NCBI GenBank assembly: GCA_964016885.1
Contig: OZ024761.1
Location: forward strand, 28,520,001-28,584,000
Reading direction: 5' to 3'
Length of the DNA: 64,000 nt
From: Eledone cirrhosa
Lineage: Eukaryota
The translations under genes and the position numbers were made by a program. Every line of letters starts with the position of its first letter. Within the stretch, counting starts at the first letter, position 1. The notes below the pieces were generated by a model, which was not told the origin of the DNA, did not search any database, and worked only from the letters and a program-made list of their open reading frames with translations. Below, one piece after another: positions 17,335-62,943 of the stretch.

Positions 17335-17534
17335 AACGAAGGAAATGTGGTAAGGAACCAGGTGGACCATAACGCACCAAAGTACTCAATGCTTGGGGTA
17401 GTAGAGTGGGTAATAGGAACCAGTAAGACCCCGACGGCTGAGCTCAAGCCGTTTCGACGGCTAATTCTGGACATTTTAGTCCAGAATTAGCTGTCGAAAC
17501 GGCTTGAGCTCAGCCGTCGGGGTCTTACTGGTTC
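17335..17534 (-). mobile_element. Family E fold-back element (half-HHR hairpin)
   Basis: ~118-bp hairpin 17417-17534 with GAAA-cggc..gccg-TC on both strands. Homologues at 24939, 51436, 56333 and 62738. Confidence 0.8.
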
Positions 17535-17561
17535 ATATATATATACATATACATATATATA

Positions 17562-17962
17562 CAAGGGCAATCCCAAAAGTAAGGTCTCCTTCAAATATTG
17601 CAACTTCCGATATTGCAACTTTTCTGTTAAAATCCTGTGGATTGTGCTTCGAGAAACTTCAGGAATCAAAATGCAGAGAGCATCCAGAGTGATCCGCCGA
17701 TCATTACACATCTTTTCCTTGGAAGGAGACCTTACTTTTGGGATTGCCCTCTATATAATAACTGCACGAAATTCGCACTTGGCTGCGGTAGCATTCAACG
17801 GGAGCTCCATTCTCAACGGCTGCCAAGCCAAGATTGAGCATCCCAGCGAAGCGCGTGCATGCTTGTTTGGGAGTGAAGGAAGCACCAATCACAACAGTGT
17901 TGCCAACAGCCGTACGAACAGTTTCTCTGAGTTTGGAAACCTTACTTTTGGGATTACCCTCG
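17562..17962 (-). mobile_element. Deleted and rearranged mariner with three TIRs
   Basis: TIR agggYaatcccaaaagtaaggtYtcc at 17562, ~17751 and 17962, next to TA. Minus-strand MELPLNATAAKCEFRAVI and DRRITLDALCILIPEVSRSTIHRILTEKLQYRK (mariner HTH-like). Confidence 0.8.
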
Positions 17963-17973
17963 TATATATATTG

Positions 17974-18181
17974 ACAGTCAATCGACTTTCATCGAATTGG
18001 ACTGAGGAAACAATGTTTCCATTGGCCTTTCCAATACTATCTATCGGTCGCAACTCCAGGTAGAAGGAGTAATGTGAAATAAAGTGTCTTAGTCAAGGAC
18101 ATAACGCATCACCCGGTCCAGGAATCGAACTCACAAAGTCACGATAGCAACTCCAGTTGTGTAAGCACTCAGCCACGTGCC
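17974..18181 (-). mobile_element. SINE family B (same head and core as A, different 3' part)
   Basis: gtgaaataaagtgtc...catcacccggtcca...gaactc; 3' part is homologous to 44540-44797. Confidence 0.75.
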
Positions 18182-18433
18182 TTCATTTCTTGGTATGGTG
18201 AACTAACTGTTGTGTTACCACTTCTACTTGACTCGTCCCATGGACTGAGTGCTCTACCACTACGGATATTACCTTCCAGTGTTCTACCTCTCTCTCTCTC
18301 TCTCTCTCTCTCTCTCTCTCTCTCTCTCTCTCTCTCTCTCTATATATATATATATATATATATATATATATCCTTGCAAGCAGGGAAGAGCGGACGTAAA
18401 ATGATGATGATGATGATGATATATATATATATA

Positions 18434-18769
18434 GGCACATAGCTTAATGGTTAGAGCATTGGCCTTGCAATTAAAAGGTTGTGAGTTCAATTCTCAGACT
18501 GGGTGATGTGTTGTTTCCTTGAGCAAGACACTTTATTTCACATTGCTCCAGTTTACTCAGCTGTAGAAATGAGATGATAGGGACTGGGGTCCATATCACT
18601 CCACTGCAAAGTGGTCGTGGAGGTGCCACGGCAAAAAAGCACCCAGCACTCACTGTAAATGAGGTTGGTGTTAGGAAGGGCATCCAGCTGTAGAAATCAA
18701 GCCAGAATCAGTTCCCGTCCCACCCTTGCAAGCAGGGAAAAAGCGGACGTAAAATGAAATGATGATGAT
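18434..18769 (+). mobile_element. SINE family A, full length
   Basis: As other copies. A 3' fragment also lies at 18372-18420. Confidence 0.92.
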
Positions 18770-60249: not shown

Positions 60250-60552
60250 ACATACATACACATACGCGTACATTAACATATGCGTTAACGTTGTGCATAT
60301 ATTTACATAGACATGCAACAACACACAAATGCATGCACACGCACACATTTACATAGCCATGTGCACTCACAGATGCATACACACACACACAAACACATTC
60401 ACATACATACACATACGCGTACATTAACATATGCGTTAACGTTGTGCATATATTTACATAGACATGCAACAACACACAAATGCATGCACACGCACACATT
60501 TACATAGCCATGTGCACACACAGATGCATACACACACACACAAACACATTCA
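60250..60552. repeat. 151-bp tandem duplication
   Basis: catacgcgtacattaacatatgcgttaacgttgtgc at 60261 and 60412. Confidence 0.9.
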
Positions 60553-60914
60553 CATGCACACATATGAGTACATTCACATAGACATGCACACACACACACA
60601 TTCACATATACAAAGACACACACACACACATGCATTCACTCATACATGCCTACACACACATACATTCACAGACATAAACATATGCACACAGACACACCCA
60701 TATATACATACACACACTCACGCATATTCATACACATACACACGTACACACATTCACACATACATACATACACACACACACACGGATACATACACAAACA
60801 CACACATTCACATAGATATGCACACACATTCACACAGACACATACACACATACAGATATATATACACACACATTCACACACACTCACATTTACACACACA
60901 CACAAAATCACACA

Positions 60915-61790
60915 ACACATTAACACAGCCACAGACACACACAGATACACACACATACACACGCTCACATTCACACACACACACACACTCACACGTACAC
61001 ATTAACACAGCCCCAGGCACACACAGACAGACAGAGCCATACACACACACGCTCACATTTACACATATACACACACACACGCTCACATTTACACATATAC
61101 ACACTCACACGTACACATTAACACAGCCACAGGCACACACAGACAGATAGAGCCATACACACACACACACACACACGCTCACATTTACACACACACACAC
61201 GCACACTCACACGTATACATTAACACAGCCACAGGAACACACAGATAGACAGAGCCATACACACACACACACACACACGCTCACATTTACACACACACAC
61301 GCACACTCACACGTACACATTAACACAACCACAGGTACACACACACAGACAGAGCCATACACACACACACACACACACACACTCACTCACACTCACACGT
61401 ACACATTAACACAGCCACACACACACAGACAGAGCCACACACACACACACACTCACACGTACACATTAACACAGCCACAGGTACACACACACAGACAGAG
61501 CCATACACACACACACACACGCACACTCACACGTACACATTAACACAGCCACAGGTACACACACAGAGACAGAGCCATACACACACACACACTCACACGT
61601 ACACATTAACACAGCCACAAGTACACACACAGAGACAGAGCCATACACACACACACACACACGTACACATTAACACAGCCACAGGTACACACACACAGAC
61701 AGAGCCACACACACACGCACACGCACACTCACAGGTACACATTAACACAGCCACAGGTACACAAACAGAGACAGAGCCACACACAGACAC
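60915..61790. repeat. ~60-bp CA-rich minisatellite
   Basis: Repeated cactcacacgtacacattaacacagccacagg...acagagcca. Confidence 0.9.
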
Positions 61791-62184
61791 CTGATATAGC
61801 GATAGTGTGATTGTGTGCACCTGGATGAGTAGAGAGAAGAAAGTATTGAACACTGATAATTGTATTGAAGAAATGTAATGATCTCAGAATTAATAATGAT
61901 TTCTTACAGAGATATTGATATTGGTCCATTGATTAGGAGATAGGCTGACTGTACTGGGACTACATTTACTGATGCTAGGAGGACAAATGGTGACCTCAGC
62001 AATATTATATATATATATATATACACACACATGTATATAGAGCCATACACACACACACACACGCTCACATTTACACACACACACACTCACATATATACAC
62101 ACACATGTATATATATATATATGACAAAGTAAAACCTACTACAGTCAGTAGGCATCTCTAACAAAATACACCCCCGTCCCACCA

Positions 62185-62732
62185 CCCCCAGCCCATCCAC
62201 ACCGCCCCTTTCAATGTAAAGTTAGGTTGGTGCCACAAAATCCAGGCCGAAACAAATGAGATCGTGTAGGTGTCACGACAAAAAAACACACAGTCCATGC
62301 TGTAATGTGACCGTGTAGGCAACACGGTAAAAACCTCCCAGCCCCACACTGTAAATGTGGTTGGTGTTAGGAAGGGCATCCAGCTGTAGAAAACCCGCCA
62401 GACAGTCCACGCTGTAATGTGGCCGTGTAGGCAACACGGTAAAAACCTCCCAGCCCCACACTGTAAATGGGGTTGGTGTTAGGAAGGGCATCCAGCTGTA
62501 GAAAACCCGCCAGACAGTCCACGCTGTAATGTGGCCGTGTAGGCAACACGGTAAAAACCTCCCAGCCCCACACTGTAAATGTGGTTGGTGTTAGGAAGGG
62601 CATCCAACTGTAGAAAACTCGCCAGACAGTCCTATGCGAGCAAGACAACCACTCTTGCCTCAAGTGGGAAAACTCCCGTCCAAACCTATGCAAGCGTGGA
62701 ACATGGACGTTAAACGATGATGATGATGATGA
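62185..62732 (+). mobile_element. SINE A-related 3' half with an internal ~117-bp unit in three tandem copies
   Basis: gtgtaggcaacacggtaaaaacctcccagccccacactgtaaatg..ttaggaagggcatcca x3; (gat)n tail. Confidence 0.85.
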
Positions 62733-62737
62733 TATAT

Positions 62738-62943
62738 AACGAAGGAAATGTGGTAAGGAACCAGATGGACCATAACGCACCAAAGTACTCAATACTTAGG
62801 GTAGTAGAGTGGGAAATAGGAACAAGTAGGACCCCGACAGCTGAGCTCAAGCCGTTTCGACGGCTAATTCTGGACTTCATTTAGTCCAGAATTAGCTGTC
62901 GAAACGGCTTGAGCTCAGCCGTCGGGGTCCTACTTGTTCCTAT
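62738..62943 (-). mobile_element. Family E fold-back element
   Basis: ~125-bp hairpin ataggaacaagtaggacccc...ggggtcctacttgttcctat. Confidence 0.82.

What the first reader, a model, noticed from the sequence alone, without database searches (positions are those of the whole stretch)
17335..62943. Family E: five half-ribozyme elements, four folding back at the same hairpin
Seen: copies at 17335, 24939, 51436, 56333 and 62738 share a ~90-nt terminus next to a microsatellite. In four, the sequence turns round at the same hairpin (gacggcta.ttctggac-loop-gtccagaa.tagctgtc, shortened at 56333). The best copies carry GAAA-cggc..gccg-TC-gggg on both strands but no CUGANGA. Arms carry copy-specific changes in mirror image (ccagtaag, caagtagg, agattcag), so each fold-back probably arose independently. 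Inference: cDNA snaps back on HHR stem II and self-primes second-strand synthesis at a fixed site; alternatively these RNAs act as trans-substrate halves of a split ribozyme.
Basis: partly seen in the sequence, partly recalled or inferred. Interest (0 to 1): 0.8.

Follow-up and report, generated by a model that had tools for sequence, protein, structure and literature searches.

The report
Penelope retrotransposon twin-primed mini-palindromes
These five repeats are short head-to-head inserts from a very abundant Penelope-like retrotransposon, likely made when both DNA strands at the target are primed on one RNA and both copies run off its 5' end inside the hammerhead ribozyme, so they would record where this element is transcribed, primed and self-cleaved.

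Summary
The five copies are real. They are the 3' half of a type I hammerhead plus the 'tail' of a Penelope-like element (PLE) with Hydra-clade motifs; a near-complete parent lies at L241. The young subfamily has 16,988 exact tailed matches. Of 97 sampled copies, 74 are fold-backs, with 60 different junctions. Snap-back on native stem II is not supported: no junction keeps stem II's 5' arm, and the tail-less arm reaches further 5' as often as the tailed arm (30 vs 29). Each arm has its own fixed outer end (position 106 or 184), matching the two RT start sites reported in vitro for another PLE. Both arms stop at one wall: 7,042 arms end exactly at A46, in an initiator-like TYAGTY motif. Template-jump copies indicate this is the 5' end of ORF-bearing RNA. 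A minor wall sits at the ribozyme cut site (about 320 copies; one locus fused to U6). Best model: twin target-primed reverse transcription on one RNA, run-off, then end-joining. The mirrored changes are subfamily alleles. The architecture is known; the population-scale mechanistic record was not found in the papers searched. No RNA data were available.

The parts
17335..17472 (-). Copy 1, tailed arm (parent positions 47-184): 3' strand of stem II, GAAA, stem III, cut site between 17433 and 17432, stem I 3' strand, tail
   Evidence: Alignment to natural parent L145
17335..17412 (-). Copy 1, PLE 'tail' (positions 107-184), between the two inferred RT start sites; in the parent it runs on into the 5' UTR and ATG
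17473..17474 (.). Copy 1, junction between the two arms
17475..17538 (+). Copy 1, inverted tail-less arm (positions 43-106), ending in (TA)n
24939..25081 (-). Copy 2, older (B-type) subfamily, tailed arm only (about 44-184), cut at the same wall, no inverted arm
51436..51464 (-). Copy 3, inverted tail-less arm (inner end 46) with an internal deletion between two short direct repeats
   Evidence: deletion read from the sequence
51466..51604 (+). Copy 3, tailed arm (positions 46-184)
56333..56458 (-). Copy 4, B-type tailed arm (inner end about 54)
56457..56512 (+). Copy 4, inverted tail-less arm (about 52-105)
62738..62876 (-). Copy 5, tailed arm (positions 46-184)
62876..62943 (+). Copy 5, inverted tail-less arm (positions 39-106); holds parent bases 39-45 that the tailed arm lacks

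Best explanation
Family E consists of dead 5'-end fragments of a Penelope-like retrotransposon, likely made by twin target-primed reverse transcription of one RNA followed by head-to-head joining of the two cDNAs. Steps: (1, inferred) Transcription starts at A46, in an initiator-like TYAGTY inside stem II of the upstream hammerhead, so the mRNA begins with only half a ribozyme and cannot cut itself there. (2, shown in vitro for another PLE, inferred here) The GIY-YIG nuclease nicks both strands of (TA)n, and the RT starts at two internal sites, positions about 106 and 184. The stretch between them is the tail. (3, inferred from the counts) In about 85-90% of events priming is on the 5' copy of these sites, so both cDNAs run off at A46 after about 60 and 140 nt. 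Priming on the 3' read-through copy gives the long inverted or tandem inserts. (4, junctions shown, pathway inferred) The two 3' ends are joined blunt, by 1-6 nt microhomology or with added bases, or a cDNA first jumps back onto the RNA. (5, inferred) A few per cent of templates are the 3' product of hammerhead cleavage; these give tiny palindromes that stop at G87.
For: Parent: L241 has pLTR, tail, a 718-aa RT-EN ORF and a second pLTR, and carries the same alleles as the young short copies. Wall: exact matches number 32,245 at positions 51-72, 4,673 at 39-60 and 4,234 at -5..19, and 7,042 arms end exactly at A46. Of 162 pooled inner ends, 1 is below 42, 74 are at 42-47, 54 at 48-53 and 33 above 53. 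Short-read contig depth rises about 20-fold at the same place in runs X1 and X4. Two primary cDNAs: the tail-less arm reaches further 5' in 30, the tailed arm in 29, equal in 15 of 74. In 9 complete long pairs the split is 4/4/1, and all 9 tail-less arms end at 106. The outer end is 106 in 60 of 74 short copies. One RNA: the arms agree at 204 of 209 subfamily sites, and when the tailed arm starts at 87 the adjoining inverted arm also stops at 87+-1 in 12 of 15 clear cases. RNA 5' end: among 30 loci where the tail runs into the 5' UTR, 6 insertions show a jump from the wall onto the 5' UTR/ORF and a second stop at 43-57. TYAGTY is kept in 26 of 31 full hammerheads while the rest of apical stem II diverges. 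Cleavage: 435 tailed arms diverge right at 87 (22 of 30 inspected are true starts), vs 95 at 89 and 46 at 85. One locus has the 3' 42 nt of U6 joined at G87 in both arms (Rfam E 1e-4 and 7e-4), and none has U6 at the A46 wall. Literature: both-strand nicking and two internal RT starts that define the tail (PMC11167929); an internal pLTR promoter with Inr and DPE (PMC2377424).
Against: No RNA evidence could be examined, so the TSS, cap and cleavage rest on genomic fossils only. A strong RT stop or a nuclease cut in loop II would give a similar wall. No DPE-like match stood out by eye downstream of A46 (consensus recalled). The base after A46 is C in 46% (3,253 of 7,042), but G is about as common, and both can come from the partner arm, so the cap signal is weak. 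Coupling of the arm ends and the mirrored U6 insert are also expected from self-copying. In L264, L284, L286 and L287 the tailed arm could formally be a second-strand copy of the jumped cDNA. Deletions at palindrome centres after insertion could blur the arm-length comparison. The 87 peak is only about 3-5 times its neighbours and lies beside a G run. The U6 fusion is one locus. 25 of the first 100 listed long copies have a mismatched C3-A8 core. The hammerhead is the minimum-energy fold in only 1 of 3 parents folded, and Rfam did not report it. The detailed sample comes from one region of contig C1.
Confidence: 0.66

Rival explanations
1. Snap-back self-priming: one cDNA primed at the tail end folds back at or near stem II, copies itself to position 106 and is joined to the target. 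The hairpin tip is trimmed afterwards.
For: The arms share subfamily alleles (204 of 209). Arm ends are coupled at 87 (12 of 15), and the U6 insert is mirrored. Position 104-106 is the first TAT microhomology met when copying from 46 (read from the sequence). 30 of 74 junctions show microhomology.
Against: 0 of 74 junctions keep the 5' arm of stem II, and solo arms stop at the same wall. The tail-less arm reaches further in 30 of 74, by 10 nt or more in 11, and by about 200-1,000 nt in 4 of 9 long pairs. It still ends at 106 after crossing a long AT-rich UTR. Poly(A) run-off tracts occur on either arm (L012, L158).
Confidence: 0.13
2. Twin priming as above, but the wall at 42-47 is an RT stall or an endonucleolytic cut in loop II of long read-through RNA, not a transcription start.
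For: The wall lies at the apex of stem II. No RNA data. The cap-C signal is ambiguous.
Against: An RT arriving from the 3' side has already opened the stem by then (inference). TYAGTY is conserved while the helix around it diverges. Read-through past 39 continues with little further loss (4,673 vs 4,234). The U6 fusion, which needs a 5'-OH (PMC6789731 abstract), was seen at 87 and not at the far commoner 46 (one locus vs none).
Confidence: 0.15
3. A fixed palindromic non-autonomous master (MITE- or SINE-like) is amplified as such.
For: Very high copy number. Short copies may keep an internal promoter (inference).
Against: 60 distinct junctions in 74, many holding parent-only bases. Long parents with the same alleles occur in each of three subgroups (2/37, 3/28, 4/32). 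Jump copies contain 5' UTR/ORF sequence. The ends are asymmetric.
Confidence: 0.04
4. The short elements are functional substrate halves of a split, trans-acting hammerhead.
For: They keep GAAA, stem III and the GUC site, and thousands of copies carry the other half.
Against: A fold-back transcript is a near-perfect hairpin (-137 kcal/mol for copies 1 and 5) that hides those strands. Variants accumulate unmirrored in both arms (59 of 62). The truncation is explained without selection.
Confidence: 0.02

Closest known systems
Hydra clade of C-terminal EN+ Penelope-like elements (Craig et al. 2021, PMC8557442, section 11 read)
   Same: The L241 ORF has RT then GIY-YIG, DKT in place of DKG, an RWR motif, a CxCX5C linker, no CCHH, and CxxC and CxH near the C-terminus. 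Hammerhead in the pLTR, (TA)n targets, inverted 5'-truncated partner and an optional tail.
   Different: RWR rather than RWK. The unit is about 3.1-3.5 kb against 'generally <3 kb'. The tail is about 78 nt against 30-40 bp. Tens of thousands of copies are dominated by 200-nt palindromes with one sharp 5' wall. No tree was built.
Poseidon element PAc of Anolis (Frangieh et al. 2024, PMC11167929, parts 1-2 of 4 read)
   Same: Both strands are nicked and extended, AT-rich targets, two internal RT start sites that bound the tail, and uncleaved RNA as the main template.
   Different: That paper found no RNA-seq ends at the ribozyme cut and, in the parts read, left the steps after priming open. Here genomic copies pile up at the cut site and at a putative TSS inside stem II.
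Head-to-head pLTR palindromes of Adineta and Drosophila Penelope (PMC3846280 and PMC2377424, passages read)
   Same: [quoted passage not shown]
   Different: Those authors read the palindromes as self-priming, probably on an antisense template. The arm-length symmetry here favours two sense-templated cDNAs.
L1 twin priming (recalled) and U6/L1 chimeras made by RtcB (PMC6789731, abstract and outline seen)
   Same: Two target-strand primers on one RNA; the U6 3' end fused to a 5'-OH RNA.
   Different: L1 twin priming inverts a non-overlapping upstream part, whereas here both primers copy the same 5' segment. The 5'-OH would come from the element's own ribozyme.
Non-LTR retrozymes (bioRxiv 10.64898/2026.07.22.740005, part 1 of 5 read)
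   Same: Short non-coding PLE-derived repeats with type I hammerhead sequence.
   Different: Retrozymes are tandem units with complete ribozymes. Family E units are inverted, lack the core and show no master copy.

Membership tests
EN+ Penelope-like element | Single ORF with RT and GIY-YIG endonuclease linked to the repeat | tested here: met
   L241 ORF 7079-9235 directly downstream of the tail. Atlas feature hits at 0.96-0.99 are unnamed or carry HTH_animal, GIY-YIG or RVT_1. Pfam gave 0 families at E 0.1, so motifs were read by eye.
EN+ Penelope-like element | pLTRs in tandem and inverted arrangement, tail on one end | tested here: met
   tandem arrays of about 3.54 kb, and inverted pairs with one tailed arm
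EN+ Penelope-like element | RT phylogeny with PLEs and telomerase | not tested
   No tree built; no reference PLE set at hand
Hydra clade | DKT, RWK-like motif, CxCX5C linker, no CCHH, CxxC and CxH | tested here: met
   Read from the translation against PMC8557442 section 11; RWR instead of RWK; supplementary alignment not seen
Hydra clade | (TA)n insertion and hammerhead in the pLTR | tested here: met
Hydra clade | Placement in the Hydra RT/EN clade | not tested
   No tree built
Type I hammerhead ribozyme (parent pLTR) | Core with paired positions 3 and 8, GAAA, UH site, stems I-III | tested here: met
   31 full copies aligned. C3-G8 or U3-A8; U3-A8 is a known PLE variant (PMC4209133 passage). 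Minimum-energy fold for L173 only, of 3 folded. First 100 listed: 75 U3-A8, 25 mismatched C3-A8. Not reported by Rfam.
Type I hammerhead ribozyme (parent pLTR) | Self-cleavage after GUC | not testable with these tools
   Indirect only: peak of 5' ends at G87 and one U6 fusion
Type I hammerhead ribozyme (the five window copies) | Complete core | tested here: not met
   No CUGANGA or UUGANAA 5' half in any of the five
MITE | Fixed terminal inverted repeats and uniform structure from a master copy | tested here: not met
   Asymmetric ends, 60 junctions in 74, RT-encoding parent
Non-LTR retrozyme | Tandem units each with a complete type I hammerhead | tested here: not met
   Short copies are inverted and lack the core

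The most novel reading that the evidence does not exclude
This family records the whole Penelope cycle in fossils. The promoter fires inside the ribozyme, so the mRNA's 5' hammerhead is born disarmed while the 3' read-through one stays active. A dimeric RT-nuclease primes both target strands on a single RNA at two programmed sites. Run-off at the cap gives strong-stop-like cDNAs whose joining or jumping explains every inverted and tandem PLE structure. The U3-A8 ribozyme does cleave in the germ line, leaving 5'-OH ends that RtcB can join to U6.
Probability: 0.4. Interest if true: 0.75.

Novelty: new variant of a known kind. Interest (0 to 1): 0.55.

Why it matters
How PLEs make their inverted and tandem ends, and whether their hammerheads cut in vivo, are stated open questions (PMC8557442, PMC11167929). 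Tens of thousands of near-identical copies give single-base predictions: RNA start at A46, RT starts at about 106 and 184, cleavage at C86/G87. An apparently intact young source (L241) is available to test them. The family also adds tens of thousands of roughly 60-bp near-perfect inverted repeats to this genome, a possible source of double-stranded RNA (not tested). For annotation, such repeats would be mis-called MITEs, and CUGANGA-only ribozyme searches miss the family.

Tried and rejected
Searching for CTGANGA directly before the fold-back arm gave 11 matches, none a hammerhead; 7 lie in an unrelated repeated sequence. This rejects the visible hairpin as native stem II. The exact C3-G8 parent pattern gave only 6 matches, misleading because most parents are U3-A8. 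The repeat finder was swamped by microsatellites. Rfam showed no hammerhead among the 150 rows shown for the window (288 lower rows not shown) or on parent L145. Pfam gave no family for the ORF. Sequencing runs: no RNA holder listed. Contigs of organisms B and C hold only pieces, too few to test the wall there. Arms from two different source RNAs: 5 discordant of 209, three explicable as CpG decay, so not supported. HDV-like and type II/III readings were considered by eye and dropped once type I parents were found. Older subfamilies: a strict pattern recovered only 13 of 30 loci and 7 copies from 400 kb of unselected stretches plus the window; tailed-arm ends were 41-50 in 8 of 13 and 46-54 in 7 of 7, consistent but thin. 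Earlier findings of this scan: none returned. Paper searches showed no paper describing a TSS inside the PLE hammerhead or a genomic pile-up at its cut site; the library lacks most subscription papers, and supplements were not read.
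Full report
Observation. The five copies exist at the stated places and are homologous. Copies at 17335, 51436, 56333 and 62738 have an inverted second arm; 24939 has none. Copies 1 and 5 are near-perfect hairpins of about 60 bp and carry GAAA-stem III-GTC-GGGG on both strands. The shared terminus is on one arm only. A search of the own genome (3.0 Gb) with copy 1 gave 2,204 candidates; the 40 scored were all fold-backs, as the query favours.

Parent. CTGANGA placed directly before the fold-back arm found no ribozyme (11 chance matches), so the visible hairpin is not native stem II. 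A gapped pattern found true type I hammerheads with a long, different stem II. I number from C3 of the core in L145: GAAA at 64-67, cut site 86/87, stem I 3' strand to about 102, tail 107-184. L241 is a near-complete young element: an inverted 5'-truncated tailed copy, then pLTR, tail, 5' UTR, a 718-aa ORF and a second pLTR. The protein has DKT, RWR, a CxCX5C linker, no CCHH, and CxxC and CxH, the features listed for the Hydra clade of PLEs, which also targets (TA)n (PMC8557442 section 11). Pfam found nothing; Atlas look-alikes are animal RT/GIY-YIG-type proteins; no tree was built. Most long copies have a U3-A8 core: 75 of the first 100 listed, 25 C3-A8, none C3-G8; an exact C3-G8 pattern finds 6. 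U3-A8 is a known PLE covariation (PMC4209133 passage). For L173 the hammerhead is the minimum-energy fold; for L145 and L069 it lies 6.1 and 3.7 kcal/mol above it.

Population. A 32-nt pattern on the tailed 3' part gives 16,988 matches. From the first 100 listed places, all on contig C1, I recovered 97 distinct copies chosen without regard to their 5' structure: 74 fold-backs, 14 solo truncated (two with decayed arm remnants by eye) and 9 long. Junctions are 60 distinct in 74: 27 with added bases, 30 with microhomology, 17 blunt. None keeps the 5' arm of stem II. Of 162 inner ends (both arms plus solos), 1 lies below 42, 74 at 42-47, 54 at 48-53 and 33 above 53. No tailed arm ended between 41 and -45. 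Genome-wide exact counts fall from 32,245 (51-72) to 4,673 (39-60) and then barely further, to 4,234 (-5 to 19) (the patterns differ in polymorphism, so the ratios are approximate). 7,042 arms end exactly at A46. Contigs of public runs X1 and X4, possibly the same animal, show the same step of about 20-fold and the drop after the tail, so this is no assembly artefact. Older subfamilies gave the same zone in small samples.

Two primary cDNAs. The tail-less arm starts at 106 in 60 of 74 short copies and in all 9 complete long pairs; the tailed arm starts at 184. Both sites offer a TAT match to the target. The tail-less arm reaches further 5' in 30 copies, the tailed arm in 29, and 15 are equal (by 10 nt or more: 11 vs 6). 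In long pairs the split is 4/4/1, with differences up to about 1 kb in favour of the tail-less arm. Window copy 5 itself has bases 39-45 only on its tail-less arm. A second strand copied from the tailed cDNA cannot hold such sequence unless large deletions followed. This fits in vitro work on the Anolis element, which nicks and extends both strands and starts at two internal sites that bound the tail (PMC11167929, parts 1-2 of 4 read; its supplementary figures were not seen). The arms come from one source: 204 of 209 diagnostic comparisons agree, while only 3 of 62 other variants are mirrored.

What the wall is. 306 copies have the tail running into the 5' UTR. Among 30 such loci (two are one insertion, four one array), 6 insertions show a cDNA that reached 43-49, jumped to a point about 250-1,000 nt into the 5' UTR/ORF, and stopped again at 43-57. 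The ORF-bearing RNA therefore most likely begins there. A46 lies in TYAGTY, kept in 26 of 31 full hammerheads whose apical stem II otherwise diverges. It resembles the arthropod initiator (consensus recalled), and Drosophila Penelope has an internal pLTR promoter with Inr and DPE (PMC2377424 passages). The next base is C in 46% of arms and T in 8 of the first 100. That is compatible with copying a cap, but G is equally common and both may come from the partner arm. A stall or a nuclease cut remains possible, and no RNA run could be examined.

A second wall at the cut site. 435 tailed arms diverge exactly at G87, against 95 at 89 and 46 at 85 (the last pattern detects about two thirds as well). 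Of 30 inspected, 22 are true starts, 7 are G-run expansions and 1 is a one-base deletion, giving about 320. Of the 22, 12 have an inverted arm that also stops at 87+-1, 3 have a longer one, 1 is partial and 6 have none. One locus, L309, has the 3' 42 nt of U6 snRNA joined at G87 in both arms; none has U6 at the far commoner A46 wall. RtcB joins U6 to 5'-OH RNA (PMC6789731, abstract seen), and hammerheads leave a 5'-OH (established chemistry). This is one case and only suggestive, but together with the peak it points to cleavage in vivo, which PMC11167929 did not detect in RNA-seq.

Mechanism and rivals. I commit to twin target-primed reverse transcription on one RNA, run-off at a transcription start inside stem II, and end-joining (0.66 for the whole chain; PLE origin near certain, twin priming about 0.8, TSS about 0.7-0.75). 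Snap-back (0.13) keeps some support: arm ends are coupled, the U6 insert is mirrored, and in four jump copies the tailed arm could be a second strand. A stall or cut instead of a TSS gets 0.15, a fixed master 0.04 and a split ribozyme 0.02.

Novelty. Inverted tail-less pLTRs, tails, (TA)n targeting and pLTR hammerheads are known PLE traits, and the junction palindromes were earlier read as self-priming (PMC3846280 passages). Searches showed no paper with a single-base wall inside the ribozyme, the arm-symmetry argument, or a pile-up at the cut site; the library is partial and supplements were not read. The element is a new member of a known clade; its dominant product and the mechanistic record make it a new variant. 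Interest 0.55.

Noticed in passing
L309:1401-1502 (G000:C1:148857806-148857927): 3' 42 nt of U6 snRNA fused exactly at the hammerhead cut site in both arms of a mini fold-back, with a further partial repeat in the middle; the only such locus by exact pattern.
   Followed up: yes
window 14004-14696: A 693-nt self-inverted repeat (95%) with a CTGAAGA...GAAA hammerhead-like motif in each arm (14072 +, 14628 -); probably a head-to-head insert of another PLE family.
   Followed up: partly
window 7490-7880, 620-824, 8248-9782, 53527-53764, 10921-11162, 49881-50609: Further self-inverted repeats; 7490-7880 is 98.7% perfect and has a CTGAAGA motif at 7596 (-). The window seems rich in head-to-head inserts of several families.
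   Followed up: no
window 56270-56310 (-): A CTGAAGA-stem-type hammerhead-like motif of a different family, just upstream of copy 4.
   Followed up: no
window 25122-25724, 16794-17167, 62300-62730: Copies of an abundant SINE-like repeat ending in (ATG)n; two lie head to head at 25122-25724, and tandem partial repeats lie at 62300-62650.
   Followed up: no
window 17560-17755: A roughly 190-nt element with about 30-nt terminal inverted repeats between (TA)n tracts, next to copy 1; MITE-like.
   Followed up: no
L267-L270 (G000:C1:91475110-91488761); also C1:437200349-437210966 and C2:320551593-320558705: Tandem arrays of the full element with a period of about 3.54 kb; candidate sources of read-through RNA.
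   Followed up: partly
L241:9236-9922 vs 5987-6804: The 3' UTR of the ORF-bearing unit lacks about 430 nt present in the upstream pLTR copy.
   Followed up: no
L243:2454-4596 (-), L244:8947-10000, L248:1205-2765 (-), L230:6951-8443: Long ORFs of other PLE families (Poseidon-like and Hydra-like by eye) lie beside family E inserts, suggesting shared (TA)n targets.
   Followed up: no
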